From Shigella phage ESh19: DNA of 64,000 bases. Shown here piece by piece: positions 9,265 to 61,207 of the stretch. Under the pieces are notes generated by a model that was not told where the DNA came from, made no database searches, and worked only from the letters and a program-made list of their open reading frames with translations. The stretch is taken from the sequence record ON528729, one strand, 5' to 3'. The translations under genes were made by a program, and so were the position numbers. Every line of letters begins with the position of its first letter. Positions within the stretch are counted from its first letter, which is position 1.

Positions 9265-11964
9265 ATGGACAATGTAGATTTCGAAAAATTACATTTGGTT
9301 GGTGATACAGAAACTGATGGGTTGCTCCTTGAGTTTACAAAAGCACACGTAATGGCTTTCGCAGACTATAAAGATGACAGTGATGAACCTGCTGTGTGGG
9401 TTTTCACTGATGAGCCTATTCTTGGTCACAAGTACACAAAATACATCAAAGGTGGTCTGCGTGAAGGTGTTGAGTTTGCACTGAAAGCTAAACGTCTTTG
9501 CATACATAATGGTTTAGGTTATGACTGGTGGGTGTTTAATCACATTGCACCTGACCTGTGGAACTTTGAGAATCCTAAGTGCAAGCCTTGGAGTGACTTC
9601 TTTCAGGATTCACTTATCCAATCTCGCGTACAGTGGATGGATAGACCTACACCAAAAGGTTACAAAGGTGCTCATGGTTTGGCTGCATGGGGTGCTCGTG
9701 TTGGTGTTCGTAAACCAGAGATTGAAGAGTGGGGTGTCTGGAATGCAGAGATTCTTACTCGTGTTGTAGAAGATATTAAGATTAACGCCAAAACTAAACG
9801 TGCTCTTGATAATGAGTACCTCAAGCTTAAGAAGTGTGGTGTTGACACTTATGAAACCTACATGCGAGCTAAAGAAACATCTTTCTGGATGAGTCAGCAA
9901 GCTATCAACGGTTGGAAAGCTGATGTAGAACTTATGCAGTTCCACGTTAAAGAGCTTGACAAGTTAACTAATGAGTTGGCTGCTGAGGTTGAACCACACC
10001 TTCCACCAACTATTAAGACAAAAGGTAAAGTCACAGGTGAAGAATTTGCCAAGTCTTGGAATGAGTATGTAGATACATTTGGTCACGTTGACGGTTTAAA
10101 AAGGATTACCAAGTACCCTAAGACAAAGTATCGTGAACAGATGCGTGAAGGTGAGTTGAAGCAGTACCCTATCAAGCCATATGGTAAGCCAACCACAAAG
10201 ATTTTTAATGTTGAGAAACGCAACTGCTACACTCCAACTAACACGGTCACAAAAGAAGAGTACCCTGAAGGTTTTGTAGCAATGAAAGATGCTCGTGCAG
10301 TTTGTAATGAACTGAATGAGAAGATTGGCAAGAAGTGTAAAGATTGGAAGCCAGTTAAGACTGTGAAAACTGTGAAGTACTACAACGTTCACGTTGTTAA
10401 TCACTTTGAGTTAGAGTCTAGTCGCTACACTGGTTTGATTGATGCACCATTCACACCAATTGAGTTTGAAGTTTCACGAATGACTCAGGTAGCTGTGGTG
10501 AAGGATTACTTAAAATCCGTTGGCTGGATTCCTGATGATTGGAACTATAAAAAAGATTCTGACGGTCGTCCTATCAAGGTTTGCAGGTTCAAAGACAACA
10601 AAAAGATGATTCGCAAACATCCTAAGTGGGATGAGATGGTTGAACGTTGTGGGTTGAACTATATTGAGCATGAAGGTGTCTACTACATCGAGCATAACTG
10701 GTCTGTTAAGAAGTACACAGATGTGCTTGAGCCTTGCTTGATTAGGACTTCACCAAAGCTTACAGAATCTTCTTATGATACAATCGAAGGTGAGCTTGGA
10801 CAGAAGATTGCGAAGTACTATACTTTGATGCACCGACGCAGGACTATCGAGAACTCAAAGGATGATGAGAAAGGTTGGCTGAACCAGATTCGTCCAGATG
10901 GTCGTTTGAGTGCAGGTGCAATGGTGTTTGGTACTTCTACTGGACGTATGACTCAGTATGGTATTGTGAACGTACCTTCTGGTGCTGCTGTGTACGGTGA
11001 GCCAATGAGGGCAGTGTGGATTTGTGAAGAGGGAACCAACGTAGTATCTGTTGATATGAACTCTGCACAGCTTGTACTACTCTGTAACTTCATGGGTGAT
11101 AAAGATTTCACCAAAGCGGTAACAGAGGGTAAAGAAGAGATTGAGTTTGTTCGTCAAGAGGATGGAAGATACTACTGTAAACACTTTGACCAGTATCTGA
11201 ATCCAGAGATTGACAAGTATCTGCGTTACGACTCTGAAAACGATTTGTACGTAGTTTACTCAGGGACTGATGCTCATACCCTGAACAGTATCTACTTCAG
11301 CCTTAATGATGAGCAAGATATCTTGACTTGTCGTGCTACTCAGGATGAGAATCTTCTTCATGAGATTAGCAAGGGACGTAAGAAAGCTAAGAATGGTATC
11401 TATGCCCTGTTGTTCGGTGCAGGTGATGAGAAGTTTGCTAAAACAATTAAAGCAGCAACTACTCAGGAAGGTGCATTGACTAAGCAGACTTACTTTGTGC
11501 GTTTACCGAAGATTAAGAAACTGTTAGACAACTTGGAAGCTGATTTCAAAGCAACTAAGAAAGCACTTGAAGAGGTGTTTGGTAAGACTGCTGCAATAGC
11601 TAAAGGTGGATTTGTTCAGGTTGCTGGGGCGTGGTTGTGGTGTAAATCTCCACACAAACTCTTGAACTATCTGTTGATGGGTTCAGAAGCACAAGTTCAG
11701 AATGAAGCAATCAACCTTGCTTGTCGTCGTATGATTGATGAAGGTTTGATGAAACTAAATGGTCGTAAGCCAGCTATCGGTGCTCGTTTACTTTGTGCTT
11801 ACCACGACGAAACAAGCTGGGAATGCCCAGAAAGCATGACAGCAGAAGTTAAGGCAGTAACTGACTGGTATTATGGTCAAGCTTCTAAAAACTTGGGACT
11901 GAAGAAGGATACTTTGGTAACGGGTACTGGTAAGGTTGGTAAATCGTGGCTTGAAGTCCACTAA
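9265..11964 (+). CDS. DNA polymerase, family A (Pol I-like) with 3'-5' exonuclease domain
   Basis: Exo I DTETDGL; motif A VSVDMNSAQL; motif C YHDE; 899 aa; RBS GAGGGAG. Confidence 0.85.
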   Translation: MDNVDFEKLHLVGDTETDGLLLEFTKAHVMAFADYKDDSDEPAVWVFTDEPILGHKYTKYIKGGLREGVEFALKAKRLCIHNGLGYDWWVFNHIAPDLWNFENPKCKPWSDFFQDSLIQSRVQWMDRPTPKGYKGAHGLAAWGARVGVRKPEIEEWGVWNAEILTRVVEDIKINAKTKRALDNEYLKLKKCGVDTYETYMRAKETSFWMSQQAINGWKADVELMQFHVKELDKLTNELAAEVEPHLPPTIKTKGKVTGEEFAKSWNEYVDTFGHVDGLKRITKYPKTKYREQMREGELKQYPIKPYGKPTTKIFNVEKRNCYTPTNTVTKEEYPEGFVAMKDARAVCNELNEKIGKKCKDWKPVKTVKTVKYYNVHVVNHFELESSRYTGLIDAPFTPIEFEVSRMTQVAVVKDYLKSVGWIPDDWNYKKDSDGRPIKVCRFKDNKKMIRKHPKWDEMVERCGLNYIEHEGVYYIEHNWSVKKYTDVLEPCLIRTSPKLTESSYDTIEGELGQKIAKYYTLMHRRRTIENSKDDEKGWLNQIRPDGRLSAGAMVFGTSTGRMTQYGIVNVPSGAAVYGEPMRAVWICEEGTNVVSVDMNSAQLVLLCNFMGDKDFTKAVTEGKEEIEFVRQEDGRYYCKHFDQYLNPEIDKYLRYDSENDLYVVYSGTDAHTLNSIYFSLNDEQDILTCRATQDENLLHEISKGRKKAKNGIYALLFGAGDEKFAKTIKAATTQEGALTKQTYFVRLPKIKKLLDNLEADFKATKKALEEVFGKTAAIAKGGFVQVAGAWLWCKSPHKLLNYLLMGSEAQVQNEAINLACRRMIDEGLMKLNGRKPAIGARLLCAYHDETSWECPESMTAEVKAVTDWYYGQASKNLGLKKDTLVTGTGKVGKSWLEVH

Positions 11965-12937: not shown

Positions 12938-13144
12938 ATGCAGGTTCTGGTAAACTTTATCTATAAGTATGAAAACATCTTCAGCACTATGACTGTAGCT
13001 CAACGCAATCCAGTTATTCCCCGAGAAGGGGAGACTGTTGAGATTAATGATTGGAACTACAGAGTTGAAGAGGTCAAGCATAAACTTAAAGATGGTTATG
13101 ACCACCAAGTTGTAAATGTGTATTTAAAAGGTAAGTGGCAATGA
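12938..13144 (+). CDS. hypothetical protein (68 aa)
   Basis: ATG at 12938 immediately after previous stop. Confidence 0.4.
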   Translation: MQVLVNFIYKYENIFSTMTVAQRNPVIPREGETVEINDWNYRVEEVKHKLKDGYDHQVVNVYLKGKWQ

Positions 13145-14573: not shown

Positions 14574-14723
14574 ATGTTTAGCACAATTATCCTGTTTGTT
14601 TTTGTTGTTTTATCATTATCTTACTTCATAAGTAAACTTTTAAGCATAACATACAAAGCAGCCTTAGCCCTTACTCTGTTGTCATTTGCAGTAAATGCAG
14701 CAGTTAGAATGTATTTAGTATAA
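14574..14723 (+). CDS. small hydrophobic membrane peptide (49 aa), not in ORF track
   Basis: ATG 14574 preceded by AGAGGT; translation MFSTIILFVFVVLSLSYFISKLL... Confidence 0.3.
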   Translation: MFSTIILFVFVVLSLSYFISKLLSITYKAALALTLLSFAVNAAVRMYLV

Positions 14724-14756: not shown

Positions 14757-14806
14757 ACCTATATAGAAAATTATATAGGAACCCGTCAGAAACCTCGGAG
14801 GTGTTT

Positions 14807-15187
14807 ATGAAAAAGTTACTTGTTGGTGTCATTGCTATTGGTATGAGTTTTAGTGCAGCAGCTATGAAGATGCCTGAAGCAAACTTTAATGGTGTTGCTT
14901 TAGAATCTTGTAAGATTGTACAGAAAATCGCTTCAAATGCTGGAGAGTTGACTAAACCGTTGTCTGCTCAGACTGTTCAAGAAATGACTGATAAGATGGT
15001 TGACTACAACTACCATTTTATGGGAGATTACTATGACAGATTAGCAGATGAGATGGTCACTCAGAACGTTGACCTTCTTGATAGCAAAGGTATTGAGACT
15101 GTAGAAGATGTGAAAGACAACTTTATGCGTGAGTCTTTCAAAGGTGTTCAATACTTTATTGAAAATCGTCACTGCATGGGTTTATAA
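14807..15187 (+). CDS. secreted/periplasmic protein with signal peptide (126 aa)
   Basis: MKKLLVGVIAIGMSFSAAAM signal peptide; RBS GGAGG 5 nt upstream of ATG 14807. Confidence 0.5.
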   Translation: MKKLLVGVIAIGMSFSAAAMKMPEANFNGVALESCKIVQKIASNAGELTKPLSAQTVQEMTDKMVDYNYHFMGDYYDRLADEMVTQNVDLLDSKGIETVEDVKDNFMRESFKGVQYFIENRHCMGL

Positions 15188-17863: not shown

Positions 17864-18763
17864 ATGTCACAAGCAGATGTAAGCTACAAAGCTATTTTAA
17901 ACCACGTTTTATCAGTTGGTGAGTTGCGTAATACCCGAACTGGCTCAGTGATTTCAACATTTGCTCCACCTGAGTTTCGTTTTGATATGCGTAGTGGATT
18001 TCCATTAATCACCTCAAAACAAACATTTATGCGTCAAGTTCTCGGTGAAGCATTATGGTTTATGAACGGAGAAAATCAACTAGGGCATTTGCGTTACAGA
18101 ACTTGGGGAGAGAACGACGGAGAGCGTTGGACTATCTGGACAGATGATTTTAAACGTTGGTTGAAAACAACCTATGCTACAGAGAATGATTGGCTGGAGG
18201 ACGCTGGAGGAAGAATCTACGGAGTCCAATGGAGAGCCTACGAAGGTCATGGTGGCGTTGTTGTAGACCAGTTGAGTAATCTTGTAGAGAAGATGAGAAA
18301 GTCTCCTACAGACCGTTACATGCTCGTTAACGCATGGAATGCAGCAGATATCTCAAGTAACTCTATGGCATTAGCACCTTGTCATGTACTTTTTCAGATT
18401 TATATCTCGAACACTAATGAGGTTGATTTGAAATGGTATCAGCGCTCTTGTGATACATTCTTAGGGTTACCGTTTAACATTGCTTCCTATGCCTTTATCT
18501 TGGAAGTGTTGTGTAAACTGACGGGATATACACCGCGATATCTGATAGGGACTTACGGTGATACTCAAATCTATCAGAACCATATGTCGCAGGTTTTTCA
18601 GCTTCTTGGCAATGAAGAGTTTCCAGCACCTAAGTTTGAAATTCATCAAGATTTGAAGTCTCTTGAAGACTTGAGACATATGACAGCAGATGACTTCCTA
18701 GGTGGGTTGAAAGGGTATAAACATGCTGGTAAGATTGAAGCTCCCTTGTCAGTAGGTAAGTAG
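17864..18763 (+). CDS. thyA: thymidylate synthase
   Basis: TS motifs RIYGVQWRAY, ALAPCH (catalytic Cys), LGLPFNIASYAF. Confidence 0.85.
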   Translation: MSQADVSYKAILNHVLSVGELRNTRTGSVISTFAPPEFRFDMRSGFPLITSKQTFMRQVLGEALWFMNGENQLGHLRYRTWGENDGERWTIWTDDFKRWLKTTYATENDWLEDAGGRIYGVQWRAYEGHGGVVVDQLSNLVEKMRKSPTDRYMLVNAWNAADISSNSMALAPCHVLFQIYISNTNEVDLKWYQRSCDTFLGLPFNIASYAFILEVLCKLTGYTPRYLIGTYGDTQIYQNHMSQVFQLLGNEEFPAPKFEIHQDLKSLEDLRHMTADDFLGGLKGYKHAGKIEAPLSVGK

Positions 18764-18766
18764 ATA

Positions 18767-18800
18767 CAAAAAAAGGCTCCTTTTTACGGGAGCCTTAGCA
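18767..18800. terminator. terminator hairpin between convergent genes (AAGGCTCC/GGAGCCTT, A/T runs both sides)
   Basis: 8-bp inverted repeat 18773-18796 flanked by A-run upstream and T-rich loop/downstream. Confidence 0.5.
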
Positions 18801-19175
18801 TTATTTCTTTTTAGCATTCTGTGTATTTTGTTCGGTAATTGCTTGTAAAGCTGATACAGACTGTGCTAAGTTGTTCACACTATCTGAGAATTTATCAAGG
18901 GTTTTGGTCAACTTAGCGTTCTCCCCTTTAACGTTCTCTAACTGCACTTTCTGGTTTTCCATCCCTAACTGAAGGAGTTTCATATCAGACTGTAAATCAC
19001 GAATAGCTGAATAGTTACCTTTTGAGTAACCATCCAACTGTTGTAACTTTGTGTTGATAGAAACTTCTTGCTTTCCATCAGAGACCTGCATCGTAGTGTA
19101 CATACCAATTACACTGAAAATACCTACAACGATTGCACCAATATTATTCTTAAAAGCATCTTCAAGCCACTTCAT
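18801..19175 (-). CDS. membrane-anchored coiled-coil protein (i-spanin-like?)
   Basis: N-terminal TM (IGAIVVGIFSVIGMY) followed by coiled-coil; adjacent to holin-like gene. Confidence 0.35.
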   Translation of the reverse strand: MKWLEDAFKNNIGAIVVGIFSVIGMYTTMQVSDGKQEVSINTKLQQLDGYSKGNYSAIRDLQSDMKLLQLGMENQKVQLENVKGENAKLTKTLDKFSDSVNNLAQSVSALQAITEQNTQNAKKK

Positions 19176-19369
19176 TATTTCTCACCTTTAAAAGCCTTTT
19201 CCAAGGTATCTACAAATTCATCATCAATAGGTGTATCTGTTTTACTCGCAAGGTATCTTGCAAGCTTAAAGAACACTTTTTCAATCATGTATTCACTGAG
19301 AAGAGAAAAAAGAAGCTTCCAAAAGAATGCCCCAAGGTTTTTCATGAAGATTGCTAGAATGGTTGGCAT
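19175..19369 (-). CDS. small membrane protein (holin-like?, 64 aa)
   Basis: Single hydrophobic segment plus charged C-terminus; RBS AAGGTGA. Confidence 0.35.
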   Translation of the reverse strand: MPTILAIFMKNLGAFFWKLLFSLLSEYMIEKVFFKLARYLASKTDTPIDDEFVDTLEKAFKGEK

Positions 19370-19418
19370 TTAATCACCTTACTTCTTGAGCCAAGATGGT
19401 GAGAATACCTACTAAGAA

Positions 19419-19447
19419 ATATTAACACCATCTTGACAGTTAGTCAA
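19419..19447 (-). promoter_or_regulatory. sigma70-like promoter TTGACT-N17-TAATAT
   Basis: Minus-strand reading upstream of 19369 gene. Confidence 0.5.
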
Positions 19448-19455
19448 CAAGGTAA

Positions 19456-21831
19456 TTATGCAGTTCTTACCCAAGCCATTAATTTAATGTAAGTGTTAAG
19501 AACACTGAATGCTGCACCAGAACCAGTTGCACCAGTGTTACCACTGAATGTGTGGTTGTGAGCACCAATACCTACACCGTGACCGTGAGCACCTACCCAA
19601 CTTGTTCTCCCTGTCCAAGTTCTGGAAGCATAGAAGTTAACTGGCGCACCATAAGTGAAGTGAGAACCTGTCCAGCTATGCCCACCTTGGCTACCACTCA
19701 TTGCAAAAGCACCGTCTGCAACGTAGAACGAGTTATTATCACTTCTAAACCATCCAAAGTTACCAGAGATTTCCATATTACCTCTGTCATGGTCGTGAGC
19801 ACCTTGAGCGTCTGTGTACTTAGTGCCATAATCAAATGTACTTGTTGTTCCAGAGAAGCTATGAGTGTGCGCAGGAATATGACCAACACTTAGAGCCACC
19901 GTATCAGAACCACCAAGACCTTTCACATCGGAACCATTTGCAGAACCAATTCTAATAGTTCTGTTTGCACCCTCTGTCAAGTAAGTCCAAGTAGTGCCTG
20001 GGAAAGCTGTATTTGGGTTGACATTAGAAGCAAAGAACGTCACAATACCAACTGGATACACTTTTTTAAGGTCTGTAGCATCAGTTACAGCGGAAGCAAT
20101 ACGTTGGTCTACTTCAGCCTTGGTGTAAGCACCAAGTTCAGAGGGTGTAGGTTTGTCTTGGTCTGTGTAGATTTTAGCCCAAACCTCTTCAAAACCAAAT
20201 CCATCCCTTGCTGTTCTATAATAGATTCCAGTATTCTTGTAGTTAAATTTAAACTGTGCAGTCGGTGTAGATGCACCAACTCCAAGGTACATTTGGTAAA
20301 CTAAGTGAGTAGACCCACCAGTTGAATTTGTAACACTGTACAAACCTGTTTTTGAATTCCAAGCAATACCTGTTGCATCACCAACTTCTGTTCCCGTTCC
20401 AGATACACCAGACAACATATATCTTGAGTTTGAAGCAGATTGTGTGTAGTATCTTGAGTCAAAGTTTGACCAATCGCTTGGTCTTACTTGTCCAACAATA
20501 TTCACATGTGTATTCACATCTAAATCAGTACCAATATTGATTGCCTTTCCTGTTACATCATTGTTAAGTACCACATTGTTTTGACCAGCATCACCAATAC
20601 CCAACCACCATCTCCTGCTCCCATTAGCATTATGTGCAGACATGTAGATTCCAGAGTCTTGTACTGTTGCCTGTAGTCTAAAAGGATTGTCGCTGTCAGT
20701 ATTGATAGTCTGTGGACTAGTAAAAACGTTTGCAGCATTAGTTCTTGCAAGAACATTCGTTAAAGAGCTTGGAACGTATCTTGTATCAAAGTTTGCAAAG
20801 TCACTTGGTTTTACCTGACCAGTTACATTGATAGCTTTATTAAATGAAAACTCTGTAGCAATTTTCAAGTTAACATTTGTCATCTGATTTGCTAAAACAA
20901 TCTCAGACTGCGTACCATCTGGTTGACCTACATACCAAGTTCCTGTCCCAGCACTGTTATAACCACGCATAAATAATGCAGCATTCTCTGTAACCGCTCT
21001 TAAGTTAAGTGCATTACTATCTGCAATAACATAAGTCTTACCATTGAAGTTGTTAACCCCAACAAAGTTATTACTTGCATTAAGTTTTGCAAATCTCTGG
21101 TCAGCAGCAGTCTGTGTAAAGAATCTTGCATCAAGGTTATTCCAGTTATTAGGCTGAACCTGTCCATTGATTTCAAAATTCTTATCAACACTAACAGAGT
21201 TTGTGCCAAGAGTCAACGTAGCACCCTTACTATTAACTAATGTAACATCAGTACCAGAAGTCAAGTTACCAACTGTGAATCTCAAAGCATTATTTGAATC
21301 CCTTGCTTCAATATATGCTCCACCATCTGGTAAGATACTTTTAAGTGTTAAACCAACACCGTTGATATTAATGATTTGTCTTGCCAAGAAGGTATTTTCA
21401 GTTTCCTTCATAGCGTATCTTGCATCATTTTCAGTATTAGTTCTCATACCTAATTCATTAGGAGATGGTTTATTAAGTGTGTGATAAACTGTTGCAGACC
21501 TTGTGGCATCATTTACAGTTAATCTTAAAGCACTTGCATTAATTCTAAAGGTCTTGGCAGTGTCACCGAGAATAACCTCAGAAGAACCTGTTGGGTCTAA
21601 TAAGTCTTTTCCACCGTATCTTAATTTGACGATGCCAAGATTCCCTGTCATATCCCCACCAGTTAGTTGTAAGAATCTTTCTAGTTTGAAAGAGGCAAGG
21701 AAATTTGCATAGGTCATTTTACGGTCTTCATCACCTAGCATATCAGACCTTTTGATAATTCTTAGGTGAAGTAAATCTTCTGAGCGAACTGTATCAATAC
21801 TGTTTAGCTCACTTAGCTTATATTCAGCCAT
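19456..21831 (-). CDS. tail fiber protein (791 aa) with C-terminal His-x-His repeats
   Basis: Size, position distal to baseplate genes, HTHSFSG ... GAHDHD ... GAHGHGVGIGAHNHTFSG motifs; RBS AAGAGGA. Confidence 0.65.
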   Translation of the reverse strand: MAEYKLSELNSIDTVRSEDLLHLRIIKRSDMLGDEDRKMTYANFLASFKLERFLQLTGGDMTGNLGIVKLRYGGKDLLDPTGSSEVILGDTAKTFRINASALRLTVNDATRSATVYHTLNKPSPNELGMRTNTENDARYAMKETENTFLARQIININGVGLTLKSILPDGGAYIEARDSNNALRFTVGNLTSGTDVTLVNSKGATLTLGTNSVSVDKNFEINGQVQPNNWNNLDARFFTQTAADQRFAKLNASNNFVGVNNFNGKTYVIADSNALNLRAVTENAALFMRGYNSAGTGTWYVGQPDGTQSEIVLANQMTNVNLKIATEFSFNKAINVTGQVKPSDFANFDTRYVPSSLTNVLARTNAANVFTSPQTINTDSDNPFRLQATVQDSGIYMSAHNANGSRRWWLGIGDAGQNNVVLNNDVTGKAINIGTDLDVNTHVNIVGQVRPSDWSNFDSRYYTQSASNSRYMLSGVSGTGTEVGDATGIAWNSKTGLYSVTNSTGGSTHLVYQMYLGVGASTPTAQFKFNYKNTGIYYRTARDGFGFEEVWAKIYTDQDKPTPSELGAYTKAEVDQRIASAVTDATDLKKVYPVGIVTFFASNVNPNTAFPGTTWTYLTEGANRTIRIGSANGSDVKGLGGSDTVALSVGHIPAHTHSFSGTTSTFDYGTKYTDAQGAHDHDRGNMEISGNFGWFRSDNNSFYVADGAFAMSGSQGGHSWTGSHFTYGAPVNFYASRTWTGRTSWVGAHGHGVGIGAHNHTFSGNTGATGSGAAFSVLNTYIKLMAWVRTA

Positions 21832-21876: not shown

Positions 21877-23052
21877 TTACGCAGTTCTCTTCCAAACATA
21901 TACAACATAAGAAGGTTGCTCAATATTAAATGCTTGTCCAGCACCAAATGCACCAGTTGTACCTGAGTGAGTGTGCTCAGAAGATTGAACTGTCACAGTA
22001 CCTGAGTGTCCATGTGAACCAATTGCAACGCTGTGTCCATGTGCTCCAATATACACACTGTGAGAGTGGTTACCACCAACTGAAGAGTTAACGTTGAAGG
22101 TATGTGTGTGAACCCCATCAAAGTCTGTATATGACGCATTACCAACACCTGCATCAGCCGTTGCCGTAATAGCGTTTACACCACCCCTGTCGGAACCCCT
22201 CAATGGAATCCTGTGGCTGTGACTACCAGCACTGCTTACAGAACCATTAACGTTATGAGCGTGGCTTCCAGAGTCGTTTGTGGCCTTAGAACCATAATCA
22301 AAACTTGATGTGCTCTTAGTCCCATAGTCAAAGCTAGAAATTACTACTGTTGCATTATGGGAGTGTCCACCACCAGTTAGTAATACAGAGTGTGTGTGAC
22401 TTGGAATGTTATTTTGTGTAAGTGTTACAGTAGCAGAACCAAATACTGATTCTACAGGTCTTGTATCTGTGTCATAACCAACAAGAGACCTTCCTTTAGA
22501 AACTAACTCCCAAGTACCACCACAAAGTAAATATGTAGATGGGTTTGCAGGGTTAACTGACAAATGAATAGTACCAATTGGATAGCTATTCTGGATAGCT
22601 CTGTATAAAGCATTCACAGCTTTTGCAGTAGCGTACTTATCAGCATCTTCAGAGTAAGAGTTTGAGTATGTCCAGTTTTGAATATTAGACAAACCTACTT
22701 GAATCTTGTTAGTGTTGTGAGGGTTATTCTTGTCATTAATGTGATTTTGAATAAGGGCATTAACTTCATCACTTGATAGAATATTAAGGTTCTGTCTAGC
22801 CTCTTCAACACTAACCACGTCTGACAAGTTATTAGCAGCCACTAATTGGAGTGCGTTAACAACATTACCAAGTTCTACGTGAACCTTTGTAACACCGTGT
22901 GGGTTATTTCTTAAAGATGCGTGTGGAGCAAGTAATTGCTCAAGTGTGCATCGTTTATCCTCAATACCTTGCTTCAGGTGAAAGATATCACTTAAATCAA
23001 TCGGTAATGAGGCTTGAGGCAATGCACTAATTTGAATTTCACCGACTGCCAT
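21877..23052 (-). CDS. tail fiber / receptor-binding protein (391 aa), His-x-His rich
   Basis: HTHSV, GGGHSHN, GSHAHN, GSHSHR, GGNHSHS, GAHGHS, GSHGHS repeats; C-terminus similar to that of 19456..21831. Confidence 0.6.
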   Translation of the reverse strand: MAVGEIQISALPQASLPIDLSDIFHLKQGIEDKRCTLEQLLAPHASLRNNPHGVTKVHVELGNVVNALQLVAANNLSDVVSVEEARQNLNILSSDEVNALIQNHINDKNNPHNTNKIQVGLSNIQNWTYSNSYSEDADKYATAKAVNALYRAIQNSYPIGTIHLSVNPANPSTYLLCGGTWELVSKGRSLVGYDTDTRPVESVFGSATVTLTQNNIPSHTHSVLLTGGGHSHNATVVISSFDYGTKSTSSFDYGSKATNDSGSHAHNVNGSVSSAGSHSHRIPLRGSDRGGVNAITATADAGVGNASYTDFDGVHTHTFNVNSSVGGNHSHSVYIGAHGHSVAIGSHGHSGTVTVQSSEHTHSGTTGAFGAGQAFNIEQPSYVVYVWKRTA

Positions 23053-42794: not shown

Positions 42795-42870
42795 TGGAGT
42801 ATCGGAAGGGACTCGAACCCTCATAAACCTGTTTTGCAGACAGGCACATAACCATTTCTGACACCGACAC
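42795..42870 (-). tRNA. tRNA-Cys (GCA)
   Basis: T-arm GAGGG-TTCGAGT-CCCTT, anticodon stem CCTGT/ACAGG loop CTGCAAA, acceptor GTGTCGG/CCGATAC, U73, CCA encoded. Confidence 0.7.
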
Positions 42871-42876
42871 ATAATT

Positions 42877-42969
42877 TGGAGGAAGATACCAGACTTGAAC
42901 TGGTACGCCGATTTCTCGGTTACTGGCAGTTTAGCAAACTGCTCCCTTACCTTTTAGGGTTAATCTTCC
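42877..42969 (-). tRNA. tRNA-Ser (GCT), type II
   Basis: Acceptor GGAAGAT/ATCTTCC perfect, anticodon loop TTGCTAA, long variable arm, T-arm ACCAG-TTCAAGT-CTGGT. Confidence 0.7.
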
Positions 42970-42970
42970 A

Positions 42971-43704
42971 TTATTTGTTCAGAGCTTCTTTCATCTCTGG
43001 AGTTGCAATAGTATCAATCACACCAGTTTTACATGAATCATCAAACCAGCTTGGTAGAACATTTGCAAGGAAACCATTAATATTTGTTTTCAGGTATTCT
43101 GCAATCAGTGCTGCTTCATCTGCAATCATCTGAGTTACTTCATTAGCATATGCAGTAATCTTTGCAATACCCTCATTAATCGCTGTAACGGCCTGTGTAG
43201 CGAGTTCAGAGATTGTATCTAGTCCTTGGTCGATTGCATCTTGCAAATCGCTTAGAACGCTATTTACAGCGTCTATGGAGGTATTAATCAAATCCATCGC
43301 TTTATTACCGTACTCGGTAGCTACGCCCATGATACCACTAAACGGTGTACATCCAACCTGTTCACCTGCTGCTCCCATAACGTTAGAGTAACCCTTAGCT
43401 ACTTGCATACGTTGTGAAAACTCATCTACAGACTTTTGCCCATACTCAGTGAGTGTACTTGTCGTTGAAGTTGTACTTCCAAGGCTTGTTGTGAAGCTTC
43501 CTAATAGGGCTGTTGTCAGTCCAGCAGCAACTAAAATCTGTTGTGTAGCTGGGTCTGTTACAGAACTAATTGAGTTAACTAATGATTGAGAGGCAGCTAC
43601 AGTACCACCAAGAACTGCTGCACCAGTAATAAGAGGGTTTGAGAAACCATTACCGGTTTTAAGGAGATTAAAAATCTCTTTACTTTGTTCTGTCATCTCT
43701 TTCA
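42971..43704 (-). CDS. hypothetical Gly/Ala/Ser/Thr-rich protein (244 aa) inside tRNA island
   Basis: ORF track (start refined to ATG 43704; upstream extension overlaps tRNA-Phe). Confidence 0.45.
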
Positions 43705-43721
43705 TTATGCACCTATAAAGT

Positions 43722-43797
43722 TGGTAGCCCATCGGGATTTGAACCCTGTTCTCATGTTTTTCAGACACGCGCTTTAACCATATAAGCTAATTGAGCT
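43722..43797 (-). tRNA. tRNA-Phe (GAA)
   Basis: Anticodon stem CGTGT/ACATG loop CTGAAAA; T-loop TTCAAAT; acceptor AGCTCAA/ATGGGCT (one mismatch); CCA encoded. Confidence 0.55.
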
Positions 43798-43804
43798 ATT
43801 AAAT

Positions 43805-43881
43805 TGGGGTGACCTACGGGAATCGAACCCGTATAGACCATGTTCACAGCATGGGTCATTATCCATTTATGATAAGGCCAC
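43805..43881 (-). tRNA. tRNA-His (GTG)
   Basis: Anticodon stem CCATG/CATGG loop CTGTGAA, C73, T-arm ACGGG-TTCGATT-CCCGT. Confidence 0.7.
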
Positions 43882-43912
43882 ATTTAAGGACTCTCGTAAG
43901 AATCCTTAGAAG

Positions 43913-43988
43913 TGGCAGCAGTATAAGGATTTGAACCTTAATCTTTCAGCTTCAGAGGCTGGAGCATTCCCAGTTATGCTATACTGCT
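43913..43988 (-). tRNA. tRNA-Gln (CTG)
   Basis: Acceptor AGCAGTA/TACTGCT perfect, D-stem GCAT/ATGC, anticodon loop CTCTGAA, T-arm TAAGG-TTCAAAT-CCTTA. Confidence 0.6.
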
Positions 43989-43994
43989 AATATT

Positions 43995-51531: not shown

Positions 51532-52412
51532 TTAAAGCAAAGACATATCCAGATTTTAAAGAGTTCGTTAAAGACTTTGTAGCGAATGTTAAAGCTGGCA
51601 AAAGATACGACTTCAGAAAGTATCAAGAGGCCGTTCTGCCTCTGACATATAGCTCACCGTGGCCTGAGTCTGATATTCCAGAAGTTACTGACTTCAATTA
51701 CACACCAGACTACACAGTTCCATTTAGCGAAGAACTTTTATATTCAGTTGGTGCTCAGATGAGGACTGCTGACTTCTTCATGGACTTGCAGTATGCAATC
51801 ATCAATGGGAAGGATGTTGACACAGTTTATTGTGAATGGTTGGCAAGGGTTAAACCTTTCTCCATGCTTAATGCAAAGTTGAAGGATGCAATCACACCTC
51901 CAGTTATTACACAGCAGCCAACTGACCAAACTGTTAACGAGGGTGGAACACTTACACTTTCAGTTGTTGCTACTGGTGCAACTGGTTATCAGTGGAAGAA
52001 AGGTGCATCAAACATCTCTGGAGCAACCTCTGCAACATATACTAAGAATGGCGTAGTCCCTACTGATGCTGGCGCATACACCTGTGTAGTTTCTGGTGAA
52101 GGTGGCTCAAGTGTTAATTCCAACGCTGCCACAGTAACTGTGAATGCACTGCCTGTGATTACACAGCAACCTACTAACCAAGAGATTACAGAGGGAGGTA
52201 CACTCACCCTTAGCATCGTAGCCACTGGTGCAACTGGTTATCAGTGGAAGAAAGATGATGTAGATATCCCTTCAGCAACATCTGCAACATATGAAAAGAC
52301 ACCGACTTCTAAAGCTGATGATGAAGGTACTTACTCTTGTGTTGTAACTGGTGTAGGTGGCTCAATCACATCCCAATCTGCCAAGGTGGTTATTAACGCA
52401 GTAGGAGGTTGA
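51528..52412 (+). CDS. protein with two Ig-like repeats (294 aa)
   Basis: Tandem repeats PVITQQPT.Q...EGGTLTLS.VATGATGYQWKK ... TSATY ... Y.CVV.G.GGS typical of Ig-like domains. Confidence 0.55.
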   Translation: MIKAKTYPDFKEFVKDFVANVKAGKRYDFRKYQEAVLPLTYSSPWPESDIPEVTDFNYTPDYTVPFSEELLYSVGAQMRTADFFMDLQYAIINGKDVDTVYCEWLARVKPFSMLNAKLKDAITPPVITQQPTDQTVNEGGTLTLSVVATGATGYQWKKGASNISGATSATYTKNGVVPTDAGAYTCVVSGEGGSSVNSNAATVTVNALPVITQQPTNQEITEGGTLTLSIVATGATGYQWKKDDVDIPSATSATYEKTPTSKADDEGTYSCVVTGVGGSITSQSAKVVINAVGG

Positions 52413-52879
52413 TAATGCAACTCTCAAGTAAAGGCTTAGAAGCCATTAAGTTCTTTGAAGGGCTTCGCTTAGAAGCCTATAAAGACTCTGCTGGAATCCC
52501 TACAATTGGTTATGGAACAATCCGTATCAACGGAAGACCTGTAACAATGGGGATGAAGATTACTGCTGAACAAGCTGTTCAATATCTCCTTGCAGATGTT
52601 GAAAGTTATGTAGGTGCAGTAAACAGAGCAATTAAGGTTCCGACTACGCAGAACGAATTTGACGCACTTGTTGTAGAGACTTACAACATTGGTATTGGTG
52701 CTATGCAGGATTCAACTTTTATCAAGCGTCACAATGCTGGTAACAAAGCTGGTTGTGCAGAAGCTATGCAGTGGTGGAACAAGATTACAGTGAATGGTCA
52801 AAAAGTAACTTCCAAGGGTCTACAAAATAGACGTAGTTTGGAAGCCAAGATTTACCTTGACGCTGTTTATCCAAAATAG
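52409..52879 (+). CDS. endolysin, GH24 (T4 lysozyme-like) muramidase
   Basis: LEAIKFFEGLRLEAYKDSAGIPTIGYGT matches catalytic region of phage lysozymes; 156 aa. Confidence 0.75.
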   Translation: MIMQLSSKGLEAIKFFEGLRLEAYKDSAGIPTIGYGTIRINGRPVTMGMKITAEQAVQYLLADVESYVGAVNRAIKVPTTQNEFDALVVETYNIGIGAMQDSTFIKRHNAGNKAGCAEAMQWWNKITVNGQKVTSKGLQNRRSLEAKIYLDAVYPK

Positions 52880-55742: not shown

Positions 55743-55957
55743 AAAAGTTTACAACTCTAGGTGAATACTGGAAGCTCTCTGTTTCTGAGCAGTACAGACG
55801 AGCTAAGAAGACTAAACAGTGCTATGGCAAGTTTGCCAGAGGTGATATTCTGGTATGTACTGAAGAGTCACTTAAGAATGTTACTCCAAGAGGTAAGACA
55901 TTCCAGAGAATGATTGACAGAGAGTGGAATGCACGATTAAAGAGGATTGAACAATGA
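55739..55957 (+). CDS. hypothetical protein (72 aa)
   Basis: ORF track. Confidence 0.45.
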   Translation: MKKFTTLGEYWKLSVSEQYRRAKKTKQCYGKFARGDILVCTEESLKNVTPRGKTFQRMIDREWNARLKRIEQ

Positions 55958-56460
55958 TTTATGAAGATTCAAGAGACCAGATTTCTTATGAGAAGTCAAG
56001 ACACCATGTATCTTTCAAGATTGTGAAAGCAAACGGTGAAGAAGGAACTATTTCACACTTTGGAGGTGAAAATTGGTTTGGTACAGGATGTTTTGAAGGT
56101 TACAGCAGAGAGTACTTGAAAGCTTTCTACAGAGACTTCTCAGCAGACTACAACGAACTTATCAATCTTGAAAATAAGCGTAGAAATGCTGAACATAATA
56201 CCAGAGGGTGGGCAGGAATAGCAATCATGTTATCTGTATTCCTTGCTATGATTTGTGTAATCTCCTTCGGTGGCATGTACATGCAGGATTTAACGTTTAA
56301 CCAAGCTGAGAAGAAAATTTCTGAGATTTGGTTCTTGTATGTGATTCCAATAGTTGGTATCATCCTCTCATGTTTGAGAATGACAACTTACAAGAAGAAG
56401 ATTGTAGAGTTTGAGAGTAAGTTTGAAGAGGTAAGTAAAGAATGCAACCTAAAATTTTAG
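55954..56460 (+). CDS. membrane protein (168 aa, two TM segments)
   Basis: Hydrophobic stretches GWAGIAIMLSVFLAMICVISFGG and IWFLYVIPIVGIILSCL. Confidence 0.5.
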   Translation: MIYEDSRDQISYEKSRHHVSFKIVKANGEEGTISHFGGENWFGTGCFEGYSREYLKAFYRDFSADYNELINLENKRRNAEHNTRGWAGIAIMLSVFLAMICVISFGGMYMQDLTFNQAEKKISEIWFLYVIPIVGIILSCLRMTTYKKKIVEFESKFEEVSKECNLKF

Positions 56461-61063: not shown

Positions 61064-61092
61064 ACTTTACTTGTTTTGATTCTGCATTGCAA
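61064..61092 (-). promoter_or_regulatory. early promoter TTGCAA-N17-TAAAGT with conserved leader
   Basis: Minus-strand reading of gattctgcattgcaag...acttta. Confidence 0.55.
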
Positions 61093-61207
61093 GTAGTTTT
61101 TTATCAAAAACTTTATCTGAGATTTCACCAATGATAAGCATTGCTAATGGCAACACAACAGAAACAATCATACCGCAAAGGATAGGGTTTTTAATGATAT
61201 CTAACAT
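61067..61207 (-). CDS. small hydrophobic early peptide (46 aa), not in ORF track
   Basis: ATG 61207 preceded by the conserved RBS cassette; translation MLDIIKNPILCGMIVSVVLPLAMLIIGEISDKVFDKKLLAMQNQNK. Confidence 0.5.
   Translation of the reverse strand: MLDIIKNPILCGMIVSVVLPLAMLIIGEISDKVFDKKLLAMQNQNK

What the first reader, a model, noticed from the sequence alone, without database searches (positions are those of the whole stretch)
18801..19369. Holin/spanin-like membrane protein pair located 33 kb from the endolysin
A 64-aa single-TM protein and a 124-aa TM plus coiled-coil protein lie between thyA and the tail fibers with their own promoter. The endolysin is at 52409, and the membrane protein nearest to it (55954..56460) is 3 kb away. 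The lysis functions appear split.
Basis: inference. Interest (0 to 1): 0.35.

Follow-up and report, generated by a model that had tools for sequence, protein, structure and literature searches.

The report
Split lysis genes of a Felix O1-like phage
Two small conserved genes after the tail-fibre genes of this Felix O1-like phage are most likely part of its cell-bursting machinery, encoded far from the wall-degrading enzyme, an arrangement already described for this phage group and for phage T4.

Summary
The window is a Mooglevirus (Felix O1-like myophage, about 97% identical to known isolates). Both ORFs are real, conserved genes under strong purifying selection. They overlap by one base (TAATG) and sit between a hairpin and promoter-like site and a two-way terminator.

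The 124-aa protein has one transmembrane helix and one long helix. Relatives already annotate it as "putative (class III) holin". The scattering of lysis genes in this group was published in 2010 and 2015. No experiment supports the holin call, and I found no similarity to the T4 T holin or to the PM2 holin gp k.

It is not the spanin. Relatives carry a canonical inner/outer spanin pair beside polynucleotide kinase, outside this window, and no lipoprotein partner exists here.

The 64-aa protein is annotated "hypothetical" everywhere. It belongs to Pfam PF26925 (Phage_PM2_Gpl), the family of PM2 P18, which is needed for outer-membrane disruption. Elsewhere its relatives lie directly after endolysins of three unrelated enzyme families and directly before the T holin in RB49-like phages.

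One caveat: mass spectrometry detected the 124-aa homologue in a Shigella phage Sf14 particle preparation.

Verdict: an ordinary lysis module, already known in outline, with one useful new assignment. Interest is low to moderate.

The parts
19175..19369 (-). Gene for a 64-aa three-helix protein of family PF26925 (Phage_PM2_Gpl; phrog_402). Relatives share the motif T44-x-T46-x-x-D49-D50, a basic N-terminal half and an acidic C-terminal helix.
   Evidence: ORF and SD. phrog_402, E 1.7e-21. PF26925 precomputed on all homologues, with its name given. hhalign to PM2 gp l: 92.7%, E 4e-7. HMM of 39 members against gp l: 22.5 bits. AlphaFold2 with alignment: helices 2-23, 26-42, 47-63, pLDDT 85. dN/dS 0.03-0.05.
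18801..19175 (-). Gene for a 124-aa single-pass membrane protein with a long C-terminal helix (phrog_4038). Relatives annotate it as 'putative holin'. The C-terminal motif LDK-x-[ST]-[DE]-S-[VI]-N-x-L is conserved.
   Evidence: ORF. phrog_4038, E 3e-70. Annotated holin or putative holin in 3HA14, Michonne and Sf14. TM segment 11-29. AlphaFold2 helices 3-29 and 40-122. Family alignment. Only about three true clusters among 1.84 billion representative proteins.
19419..19447 (-). Sigma-70-like promoter candidate, TTGACT-17-TAATAT with an extended -10 TG, upstream of the 64-aa gene.
   Evidence: Consensus scan. Hexamers conserved in Michonne and Bas63. Felix O1 RT-PCR gives ORF78 and ORF79 different timing from fibre ORFs 76 and 77. 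Function not shown.
19374..19455 (-). Stable RNA hairpin that would form in read-through transcripts from the fibre gene. Its outer stem pairs with the AAGGUG Shine-Dalgarno sequence of the 64-aa gene (19380..19375). The promoter candidate lies inside it.
   Evidence: RNA fold -30.5 kcal/mol, z = -5.5, 0 of 200 shuffles as stable. Bas63 gives an equivalent fold, -28.2 kcal/mol, z = -5.1; Hena2 and L012 have a true terminator at this position.
18773..18796 (.). Two-way intrinsic terminator shared by the lysis pair and convergent thyA. It corresponds to Felix O1 terminators t79 and t80.
   Evidence: Terminator scan on both strands. The same hairpin sequence is listed as t79/t80 in Felix O1.
52415..52879 (+). 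Soluble endolysin (T4-lysozyme-type, 154 aa from the probable ATG; the mechanical ORF starts at TTG 52409). It has no signal or SAR sequence, so it needs a holin.
   Evidence: PF00959, E 9.9e-39. Sequence and start context. Annotated endolysin in Michonne and Bas63.

Best explanation
The two genes form a small, separately transcribed lysis module at the end of the late structural gene block. It is physically separate from the soluble endolysin (33 kb away) and from the canonical spanin pair (outside this window). This is the same three-locus layout as in phage T4.

The 124-aa protein is the probable holin. It is a single-pass inner-membrane protein with a long helical domain that would accumulate in the membrane and then permeabilise it, letting the soluble lysozyme reach the wall. 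This role is inferred and has not been shown.

The 64-aa protein, translationally coupled to it, is a homologue of PM2 P18 (gp l). It is a small three-helix protein, basic at the N-terminus and acidic at the C-terminus, that acts in lysis with the holin. In PM2 it is needed for the last step, breaking the outer membrane.

What is shown: the homology to gp l and the repeated linkage of the family to lysis genes. What is inferred: the biochemical action, the topology and the timing.
For: 1. The 64-aa protein belongs to PF26925 (Phage_PM2_Gpl). Profile comparison with PM2 gp l gives 92.7% probability, E 4e-7, 38% identity over 42 columns. An HMM built from 39 members scores gp l at 22.5 bits. PM2 P17 perforates the cytoplasmic membrane and P18 helps break the outer membrane (review citing Krupovic 2007).

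2. Linkage to lysis genes is repeated and independent. PF26925 genes lie directly downstream of endolysins of three unrelated families: GH108, Phage_lysozyme and Amidase_3. They lie directly upstream of the T holin (PF11031) in RB49-like phages.

3. In every Ounavirinae-like lineage examined, the PF26925 gene is immediately followed by a homologue of the 124-aa protein: Mooglevirus, Felixounavirus, Kolesnikvirus and metagenomic contigs. That is the slot the T holin occupies in RB49. PM2 gp k likewise combines an N-terminal TM helix with a short helix.

4. The endolysin is soluble, so a holin is required.

5. The pair persists downstream of unrelated fibre types. The Hena2 1157-aa protein shows no similarity to the fibre here. 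L012-14 have fibres with their own S74 chaperone domain plus gp38-like proteins.

6. Canonical spanins lie elsewhere, next to polynucleotide kinase as in T4.

7. Published annotations reach the same general reading.
Against: 1. No experiment on either protein was found in the searchable literature. The Mooglevirus HP1 paper says verification is still needed, and the Bas63 record annotates no holin at all.

2. The 124-aa family shows no similarity to the T holin or to PM2 gp k (hhalign probability below 1%), nor to any Pfam or NCBIfam holin model.

3. Its topology is not settled. Charges flanking the TM helix are balanced, 2+/2- on each side.

4. Felix O1 end-point RT-PCR puts ORF79 at maximum 5 min after infection, which is early for a holin. 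That table also lists the major capsid gene at 5 min, so it is weak evidence.

5. The Sf14 homologue (gp55) was detected by MS in particle preparations.

6. In SU10-like podophages the PF26925 gene sits inside the structural module, between the tail needle knob (or another protein) and the adaptor.

7. This phage group already has spanins, so an outer-membrane role for the 64-aa protein would be redundant.
Confidence: 0.55

Rival explanations
1. The roles are the other way round. The 64-aa Gp l-like protein is the membrane-permeabilising element (the holin), and the 124-aa protein is its regulator, antiholin or accessory.
For: In several phages the PF26925 gene and an endolysin form a tight two-gene unit with no other hydrophobic gene beside it: L015 (Shewanella), L024 (Amidase_3, overlapping), L010 (Vibrio) and L027 (inserted between topoisomerase genes). 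The protein has the classic small size, a hydrophobic N-terminus and a charged C-terminus.
Against: In PM2 the holin is gp k, not gp l. The hydrophobic segment is marginal and carries two lysines. The Vibrio homologue is not flagged as a TM protein although other genes in that record are. In RB49-like phages a true T holin lies next to it. L018 has a separate 31-aa TM peptide upstream of its endolysin.
Confidence: 0.2
2. The pair, or at least the 124-aa protein, is virion-associated or helps assemble or attach the tail fibres. It would be encoded after the fibre genes as fibre chaperones usually are.
For: The genes lie directly after two fibre genes that carry T4 gp37/gp10-like tips. Sf14 gp55, the 124-aa homologue, was detected by MS in particles. 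PF26925 sits in the structural module of SU10-like podophages. A long coiled coil recalls T4 gp57A or fibritin (my own knowledge; not tested).
Against: The pair is kept after unrelated fibres, and after fibres that already have an intramolecular chaperone and gp38-like proteins. The 124-aa protein has a TM helix. Neither was detected in CsCl-banded Felix O1 virions and neither is mentioned in the Bas63 cryo-EM study. The Sf14 sample was pelleted, not gradient-purified, so membrane debris could explain the detection. There is no significant hit to any chaperone family. PF26925 is linked to endolysins elsewhere.
Confidence: 0.12
3. The pair encodes early membrane proteins that modify the infected cell envelope, for example in superinfection exclusion or lysis inhibition, rather than executing lysis.
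For: A host-type sigma-70 promoter candidate is conserved upstream. Felix O1 ORF79 is scored as maximal at 5 min. The phage group carries rIIA and rIIB.
Against: The RT-PCR table is crude: the capsid gene is also scored at 5 min. The 64-aa family is linked to endolysins and holins, not to early regions. PADLOC gives only one weak hit, E 0.0054, in the coiled-coil region.
Confidence: 0.08
4. The 124-aa protein is an i-spanin-like component that bridges the periplasm.
For: It has an N-terminal TM helix plus a long periplasmic-type helix. It gives weak hits to Rz-like PHROGs, E 0.02-0.15.
Against: There is no o-spanin partner: no cysteine in either protein, no lipobox ORF embedded or adjacent, and a terminator directly downstream. 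Canonical i-/o-spanins exist elsewhere in relatives; the o-spanin lipobox LMSGC is seen. The PHROG hits are at coiled-coil noise level.
Confidence: 0.05

Closest known systems
Putative class III holin of Felix O1-like phages (Felix O1 gp79, Michonne gp57, Sf14 gp55/FDI99_gp102, Moogle, Mushroom)
   Same: It is the same gene: 90-97% amino-acid identity and the same position between the fibre genes and thyA. The dispersal of holin, endolysin and spanins is already described.
   Different: Nothing differs. The annotation rests only on a predicted TM helix and has no experimental support.
PM2 lysis pair gp k (P17, holin) and gp l (P18, outer-membrane disruption); Pfam PF26925 Phage_PM2_Gpl
   Same: The 64-aa protein is a sequence homologue of gp l. 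In both phages the gene is paired and overlapping with a gene for a single-TM protein with a helical tail, at the end of the late operon.
   Different: The gene order is reversed: here the l-like gene comes first. The TM partner is 124 aa rather than 53 aa and shows no detectable similarity to gp k. This phage also has an endolysin and spanins, which PM2 is reported to lack. The T-x-T-x-x-D-D motif of the tailed-phage members reads S-x-N-x-x-D-N in PM2.
T4-type dispersed lysis system: gene t after g37/g38, gene e elsewhere, spanins pseT.3/pseT.2 beside pseT
   Same: The layout has three loci: a holin candidate after the distal tail-fibre gene, a soluble lysozyme elsewhere, and spanins beside polynucleotide kinase. 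rIIA and rIIB are present. In RB49 the order is gp37, then the Gp l-like gene, then t. The T4 gene positions are from established knowledge (Summer et al. 2007; Young laboratory reviews).
   Different: The 124-aa protein is not a member of the T holin family: no PF11031 hit and hhalign probability 0.4%. It is about half the size and has no cysteines, and its C-terminal part is one long helix rather than a globular domain.
Two-component spanins (lambda Rz/Rz1)
   Same: The 124-aa protein shares the i-spanin outline: an N-terminal TM helix plus a helical periplasmic-type domain.
   Different: It has no lipoprotein partner, no cysteines and no significant sequence match. The genuine spanin pair lies elsewhere in the genome.
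T7 gp17.5 holin, encoded directly after tail-fibre gene 17 (own knowledge)
   Same: It is a small lysis gene placed immediately after the fibre gene and far from the endolysin.
   Different: No sequence relationship was tested or is claimed. This is a positional analogy only.

Membership tests
Holins (functional class; class III / T4 T-type, PF11031) | Small phage-encoded protein with at least one transmembrane helix | tested here: met
   124 aa. Hydrophobic segment 11-29, Kyte-Doolittle 1.62. AlphaFold2 helix 3-29.
Holins (functional class; class III / T4 T-type, PF11031) | N-in/C-out topology with the large domain in the periplasm (class III) | tested here: inconclusive
   Flanking charges are balanced, 2+/2- on both sides, in most family members. 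No topology predictor or experiment was available. N-in/C-out is asserted for the homologue in phage Mushroom.
Holins (functional class; class III / T4 T-type, PF11031) | Sequence or profile similarity to the T holin family | tested here: not met
   No PF11031 hit at E<=1. hhalign of the family against RB49 T gives probability 0.4%, whereas RB49 T itself scores 4.5e-61 against PF11031.
Holins (functional class; class III / T4 T-type, PF11031) | Genetic linkage to other lysis genes | tested here: met
   It is translationally coupled to a PF26925 (PM2 gp l family) gene. It occupies the same slot as t in RB49. It is not adjacent to the endolysin or the spanins.
Holins (functional class; class III / T4 T-type, PF11031) | Lethal, timed permeabilisation of the inner membrane that releases endolysin; premature triggering by energy poisons | not testable with these tools
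   This needs expression and complementation experiments. None were found in the literature searched.
Holins (functional class; class III / T4 T-type, PF11031) | Late expression | tested here: inconclusive
   Felix O1 RT-PCR scores ORF79 as maximal at 5 min and ORF78 at 25 min, but the table is crude. A sigma-70-like promoter candidate lies upstream.
PM2 Gp l / P18 family (PF26925) | Sequence similarity to PM2 gp l | tested here: met
   PF26925 is precomputed on all homologues. hhalign: 92.7%, E 4e-7. hmmsearch: 22.5 bits. Pairwise BLASTP finds nothing, and the local Pfam copy lacks the model.
PM2 Gp l / P18 family (PF26925) | Very small all-helical protein without a canonical transmembrane domain | tested here: met
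   64 aa. Three helices, pLDDT 85. Best 19-mer hydropathy 1.45, with two lysines inside. That PM2 gp l has no TM domain is from my recollection of Krupovic 2007.
PM2 Gp l / P18 family (PF26925) | Encoded next to the holin or endolysin | tested here: met
   It is next to the putative holin here. Family members lie next to the T holin, next to endolysins and next to gp k in PM2. The exception is SU10-like podophages.
PM2 Gp l / P18 family (PF26925) | Required for outer-membrane disruption at lysis | not testable with these tools
   This is known only for PM2. It needs a deletion mutant and microscopy in the presence of divalent cations.
Two-component spanin (Rz/Rz1 type) | i-spanin: N-terminal TM helix plus periplasmic coiled-coil domain | tested here: met
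   The architecture of the 124-aa protein fits.
Two-component spanin (Rz/Rz1 type) | Partner o-spanin: small lipoprotein with a lipobox cysteine, embedded in, overlapping or adjacent to the i-spanin gene | tested here: not met
   Neither protein has a cysteine. The only same-strand internal ORF (18980..19108, 42 aa) has no lipobox. A terminator lies directly downstream.
Two-component spanin (Rz/Rz1 type) | Sequence similarity to known spanin families | tested here: not met
   The only matches are weak coiled-coil-level PHROG hits, E 0.022 and 0.15. The group's real spanins (Michonne 86438..86948; Bas63 gp89/gp90) have no homologue in the window.
Tail-fibre assembly chaperones (gp38, Tfa, gp57A types) | Encoded immediately downstream of the fibre gene | tested here: met
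Tail-fibre assembly chaperones (gp38, Tfa, gp57A types) | Co-varies with the fibre's distal domain; sequence similarity to a chaperone family | tested here: not met
   The pair is retained after unrelated fibres and after fibres that already have an S74 chaperone domain plus gp38-like genes. The only chaperone-family match is phrog_15939 at E 0.048. gp57A itself was not compared.

The most novel reading that the evidence does not exclude
PM2 Gp l-like proteins (PF26925) may be a widespread, functionally unrecognised class of lysis effector in tailed phages of enterobacteria, Vibrio, Aeromonas and Shewanella. They could be the permeabilising partner in minimal 'endolysin + Gp l' cassettes, or a spanin-independent outer-membrane disruptor or holin cofactor. 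In Felix O1-like and RB49-like myophages they would work with a single-pass holin. Here their translation might additionally be gated by a hairpin that hides the ribosome-binding site in read-through fibre transcripts.
Probability: 0.3. Interest if true: 0.55.

Novelty: already known. Interest (0 to 1): 0.28.

Why it matters
The layout itself changes nothing. Scattered, T4-like lysis genes in Felix O1-like phages were reported in 2010 and 2015, and the 124-aa gene is already labelled "putative holin".

Two points have practical value.

1. That label is unverified, has spread by copying between records, and sits beside one report of the protein in particle preparations. It should be treated as a hypothesis.

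2. The neighbouring "hypothetical" 64-aa gene can now be tied to the one experimentally studied member of its family, PM2 P18, and to a consistent lysis-gene neighbourhood across unrelated phages. This gives lysis researchers a tractable E. coli/Shigella system (Bas63, Sf14) for finding out what this family does.

Felix O1-like phages are used in Salmonella diagnostics and biocontrol, so knowing their true holin and lysis timing control has some applied value.

Tried and rejected
1. Pfam, NCBIfam and PADLOC scans of both proteins gave only coiled-coil noise for the 124-aa protein and nothing for the 64-aa protein. The local Pfam copy lacks PF26925.

2. An exhaustive phmmer search of the 124-aa protein against 1.84 billion representatives found about three true clusters. 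The other hits were long coiled-coil proteins.

3. hhalign of the 124-aa family against PM2 gp k and RB49 T showed no relationship.

4. A profile search of the 124-aa family against PDB sequences returned only generic coiled coils; hemolysin E at E about 0.015 is not significant.

5. Foldseek searches with the 64-aa model against BFVD and PDB returned only family members and insignificant helical bundles. I did not run a fold search on the 124-aa model, because a single long helix gives meaningless matches.

6. Pairwise BLASTP of the 64-aa protein against PM2 gp l found nothing. The relationship appears only with profiles.

7. The PhageMaP paper (Bas63 knock-out fitness map) has no supplementary tables held, and its text does not mention gp28 or gp29.

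8. The fibre-specific chaperone idea was rejected because the fibres do not co-vary with the pair.

9. A heuristic lipobox scan of Vibrio phage 1.016.O found no o-spanin candidate. The scan is too crude to conclude that Gp l-like proteins replace spanins.

10. Other membrane proteins in the window were considered as rival holins and could not be excluded: a 49-aa two-TM ORF at 14574..14723, a 168-aa two-TM protein at 55954..56460 and a 46-aa one-TM ORF at 61067..61207.
Full report
**What the window is.** A 7-kb stretch around the finding is 96-98% identical to Mooglevirus genomes: Citrobacter phage BSwM KMM2, Shigella phages Sf13-Sf19 and E. coli phage 3HA14. It is 60-90% identical to about 230 other Felix O1-like phages. 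The window is therefore part of a Felix O1-like myophage of the subfamily Ounavirinae.

**The observation.**
- Both ORFs are at the stated coordinates on the minus strand: 19369..19175 (64 aa) and 19175..18801 (124 aa).
- The stop of the first overlaps the start of the second (TAATG), and each has a Shine-Dalgarno sequence.
- They follow two tail-fibre genes (23052..21877 and 21831..19456). They converge on thyA (17864..18763) across a two-way terminator hairpin at 18773..18796. That hairpin is the same sequence as Felix O1 terminators t79/t80.
- tblastn finds the 124-aa protein in 296 phage records and the 64-aa protein in 394.
- dN/dS against Michonne and Bas63 is 0.03-0.05 for both genes. 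They are real genes.
- The endolysin is confirmed at 52409/52415..52879: PF00959, E 1e-38, with no signal or SAR sequence. The 168-aa protein at 55954..56460 has two strong hydrophobic segments.

**The 124-aa protein.**
- It has one hydrophobic segment, residues 11-29.
- AlphaFold2 without an alignment predicts helix 3-29, a short linker, and one continuous helix 40-122. Confidence is high only in the C-terminal half.
- It matches phrog_4038 (unknown function, E 3e-70). Otherwise it gives only coiled-coil noise in Pfam, NCBIfam, PADLOC and PDB sequence searches.
- The family is very narrow. An exhaustive search of 1.84 billion representative proteins returns about three true clusters: the Felix O1 type and two clusters at about 28% identity of 114 and 128 aa. 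The divergent members come from Erwinia/Hafnia Kolesnikvirus and related metagenomic contigs.
- What is conserved: the TM helix, an N-N-[IV] motif just before it, and a C-terminal motif LDK-x-[ST]-[DE]-S-[VI]-N-x-L.
- Charges on the two sides of the TM helix are balanced, so the N-in/C-out topology asserted in genome announcements is not secured by the sequence.

**What is already published about it.**
- The 2010 Felix O1 genome paper noted that, "as with coliphage T4", no holin gene lies next to the lysin. It listed gp79, the last gene before terminator t79 and so this gene, among five candidates.
[quoted passage not shown] - GenBank records label this gene "holin" or "putative holin".
- A 2022 Mooglevirus paper states that the assignment "remains to be verified". 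The carefully annotated Bas63 record names no holin at all.
- The split arrangement is therefore known, and the holin call is an unverified inference.

**Why it is not the spanin.**
- In Michonne an overlapped i-spanin/o-spanin pair lies at 86438..86948. It is two genes from polynucleotide kinase and near rIIB. Bas63 has the same arrangement.
- The o-spanin has a canonical lipobox, LMSGC.
- The window holds no homologue of either spanin (tblastn E>0.1), so the spanin locus lies outside it.
- Neither protein of the pair contains a cysteine. The only same-strand internal ORF has no lipobox, and a terminator follows directly.
- The i-spanin resemblance is architectural only.

**The 64-aa protein.**
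- It is annotated "hypothetical" everywhere.
- Its homologues all carry the precomputed Pfam family PF26925, whose name, Phage_PM2_Gpl, is given. The local Pfam copy lacks this model, which explains the empty result.
- I checked the link directly. PM2 gp l is the 51-aa product of 9922..10077 in NC_000867.
  - Profile comparison of ten family members with it gives 92.7% probability, E 4e-7, 38% identity over 42 columns.
  - An HMM of 39 tailed-phage members scores it at 22.5 bits.
  - Pairwise BLASTP sees nothing.
- According to a review citing Krupovic et al. [quoted passage not shown]
- AlphaFold2 with the alignment predicts three helices (2-23, 26-42, 47-63) at pLDDT 85. Fold searches add nothing.
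- The N-terminal half is hydrophobic and basic, and the C-terminal helix is acidic. The tailed-phage members share an invariant T-x-T-x-x-D-D motif.
- The hydrophobic segment is marginal for a membrane span: 1.45 on a 19-residue window, with two lysines inside.

**Neighbourhoods of the 64-aa family.** This is the strongest functional evidence.
- PF26925 genes lie directly after endolysins of three unrelated enzyme families:
  - GH108 plus a PG-binding domain in Vibrio phage 1.016.O.
  - Phage_lysozyme in a Shewanella baltica genome, two metagenomic phage contigs, and a large phage where the two-gene unit sits between gyrase/topoisomerase genes.
  - Amidase_3, with overlapping genes.
- In RB49 and other Krischvirus genomes the order is gp37 (distal tail fibre), then the PF26925 gene (ORF251w/Dc5), then t, a true T holin scoring 4.5e-61 against PF11031.
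- In every Ounavirinae-like lineage the order is fibre, then the PF26925 gene, then a homologue of the 124-aa protein, followed by convergent thyA.
- In PM2, gp l overlaps the holin gene k at the end of the late operon.
- The exception is SU10-like podophages, where the gene lies between the tail needle knob (or another protein) and the adaptor.

**The fibre-chaperone alternative.** The position after the fibre genes invites this idea, but the pair does not track the fibre.
- Hena2 keeps the pair after a 1157-aa protein with no similarity to the fibre here.
- The RB49 gp37 tip is unrelated to the fibre here.
- Contigs L012-14 keep the pair after a fibre with its own S74 chaperone domain and one or two gp38-like genes.

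**Virion evidence is mixed.**
- Stringent MS of twice CsCl-banded Felix O1 did not find gp78 or gp79.
- The Bas63 cryo-EM paper does not mention gp28 or gp29.
- Table 1 of the Sf14 structure paper lists gp55 (FDI99_gp102), "Holin or lysozyme", as detected by MS. FDI99_gp102 is the 124-aa gene.
- That sample was pelleted at 13,000 x g and TCA-precipitated, not gradient-purified. Membrane debris carrying an abundant late membrane protein is a plausible source, but a virion association is not excluded.

**Transcription.**
- A sigma-70-like site (TTGACT-17-TAATAT, with TG) lies at 19447..19419 (-) and is conserved in Michonne and Bas63. The scan as a whole is not above chance.
- The 84-nt intergenic RNA would fold into a long hairpin: -30.5 kcal/mol, z = -5.5. 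Its outer stem pairs with the Shine-Dalgarno sequence of the 64-aa gene.
- Bas63 folds equivalently despite sequence differences. Hena2 and L012 have a canonical terminator at this position.
- By inference, a transcript starting at the internal promoter (around 19412) would lack the 5' arms and leave the ribosome-binding site free. Read-through fibre mRNA would hide it.
- Felix O1 end-point RT-PCR scores ORF79 as maximal at 5 min, ORF78 at 25 min and the fibre ORFs 76 and 77 at 60 min. This fits separate control, but the table also lists capsid genes at 5 min, so it carries little weight.

**Most likely explanation.** The pair is a separately controlled lysis module. The 124-aa protein is the probable holin for the soluble lysozyme. 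This rests on its slot, its architecture, its coupling to a lysis-family gene and the fact that a holin is needed. The 64-aa protein is a PM2 P18-like lysis factor acting with it. I put this at about 0.55.
- Main rival (0.2): the small protein is the permeabilising element and the 124-aa protein is its regulator. The minimal "endolysin + Gp l" units, which have no other hydrophobic gene beside them, support this.
- Virion or fibre-assembly role: 0.12.
- Early envelope-modifying role: 0.08.
- i-spanin role: 0.05.

**Comparison and novelty.**
- The layout matches T4's three loci: a holin after the distal fibre gene, a lysozyme elsewhere, and spanins beside polynucleotide kinase (established knowledge for T4; for the relatives).
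- The 124-aa protein fails the membership test for the T holin family and for PM2 gp k. It may work like a class III holin but is not a member of that family.
- The 64-aa protein passes the sequence test for the PM2 Gp l family.
- The finding as written is already known. The added value is the assignment of the 64-aa gene, the evidence against the spanin and chaperone readings, and the note that the "holin" label is unproven and coexists with one report of the protein in particle preparations.

Noticed in passing
window 19374..19455 (-): The 84-nt spacer between the fibre gene and the 64-aa gene folds into a very stable hairpin (-30.5 kcal/mol, z = -5.5). Its outer stem pairs with the Shine-Dalgarno sequence of the 64-aa gene, and the sigma-70-like promoter lies inside it. 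Bas63 has an equivalent fold. Hena2 and L012 have a plain terminator at this position. This could restrict translation to promoter-initiated transcripts.
   Followed up: partly
relatives: L005 8439..8949 (Michonne 86438..86948); L026 21778..22288 (Bas63): The canonical overlapped i-/o-spanin pair of this phage group lies beside polynucleotide kinase and near rIIB, as T4's pseT.3/pseT.2 lie beside pseT. The locus is outside this window.
   Followed up: yes
PMC11821841 Table 1; L034 1800..2174: Sf14 gp55 (FDI99_gp102), the 124-aa 'putative holin', is listed as detected by mass spectrometry in Sf14 particles, under the label 'Holin or lysozyme'. The sample was pelleted, not gradient-purified.
   Followed up: partly
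window 14574..14723 (+) and 14801..15187 (+): Just after the DNA ligase gene lie a 49-aa ORF with two strong hydrophobic segments and a 128-aa ORF with a signal-peptide-like N-terminus. Either could be a further membrane or periplasmic factor. The 49-aa ORF is an unexcluded holin candidate.
   Followed up: no
window 55954..56460 (+): This 168-aa protein has two strong TM segments in its C-terminal half. It appears to correspond, by position and size only (no alignment was run), to Bas63 gp116, which the PhageMaP study reports as conditionally essential on E. coli S17-1.
   Followed up: partly
L027 2553..3192: A two-gene 'Phage_lysozyme + PF26925' unit is inserted between gyrase B-like and topoisomerase IV-like genes of a large phage contig. 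This suggests the pair moves as a unit.
   Followed up: no
window 19456..21831 (-) and 21877..23052 (-): Both tail-fibre proteins end in a T4 gp10/gp37-like His-x-His tip domain and in the same W-[VK]-R-T-A tail. The longer fibre also carries gp37_trimer and gp37_C domains.
   Followed up: partly
window 42795..47882 (-): A cluster of 25 tRNA genes lies on the minus strand, as in other Felix O1-like phages.
   Followed up: yes
window 52409..52879 (+): The mechanical endolysin ORF starts at TTG 52409. The likely true start is ATG 52415, preceded by GGAGG, which gives 154 aa as in Michonne.
   Followed up: yes
L033 10452..10661 (Vibrio phage 1.016.O, NVP1016O_17): This 69-aa protein has an N-terminal TM helix and a charged helical tail. 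It resembles PM2 gp k and the 124-aa protein in outline but is not adjacent to the phage's endolysin-Gp l unit. My crude scan found no lipobox ORF in this genome.
   Followed up: partly
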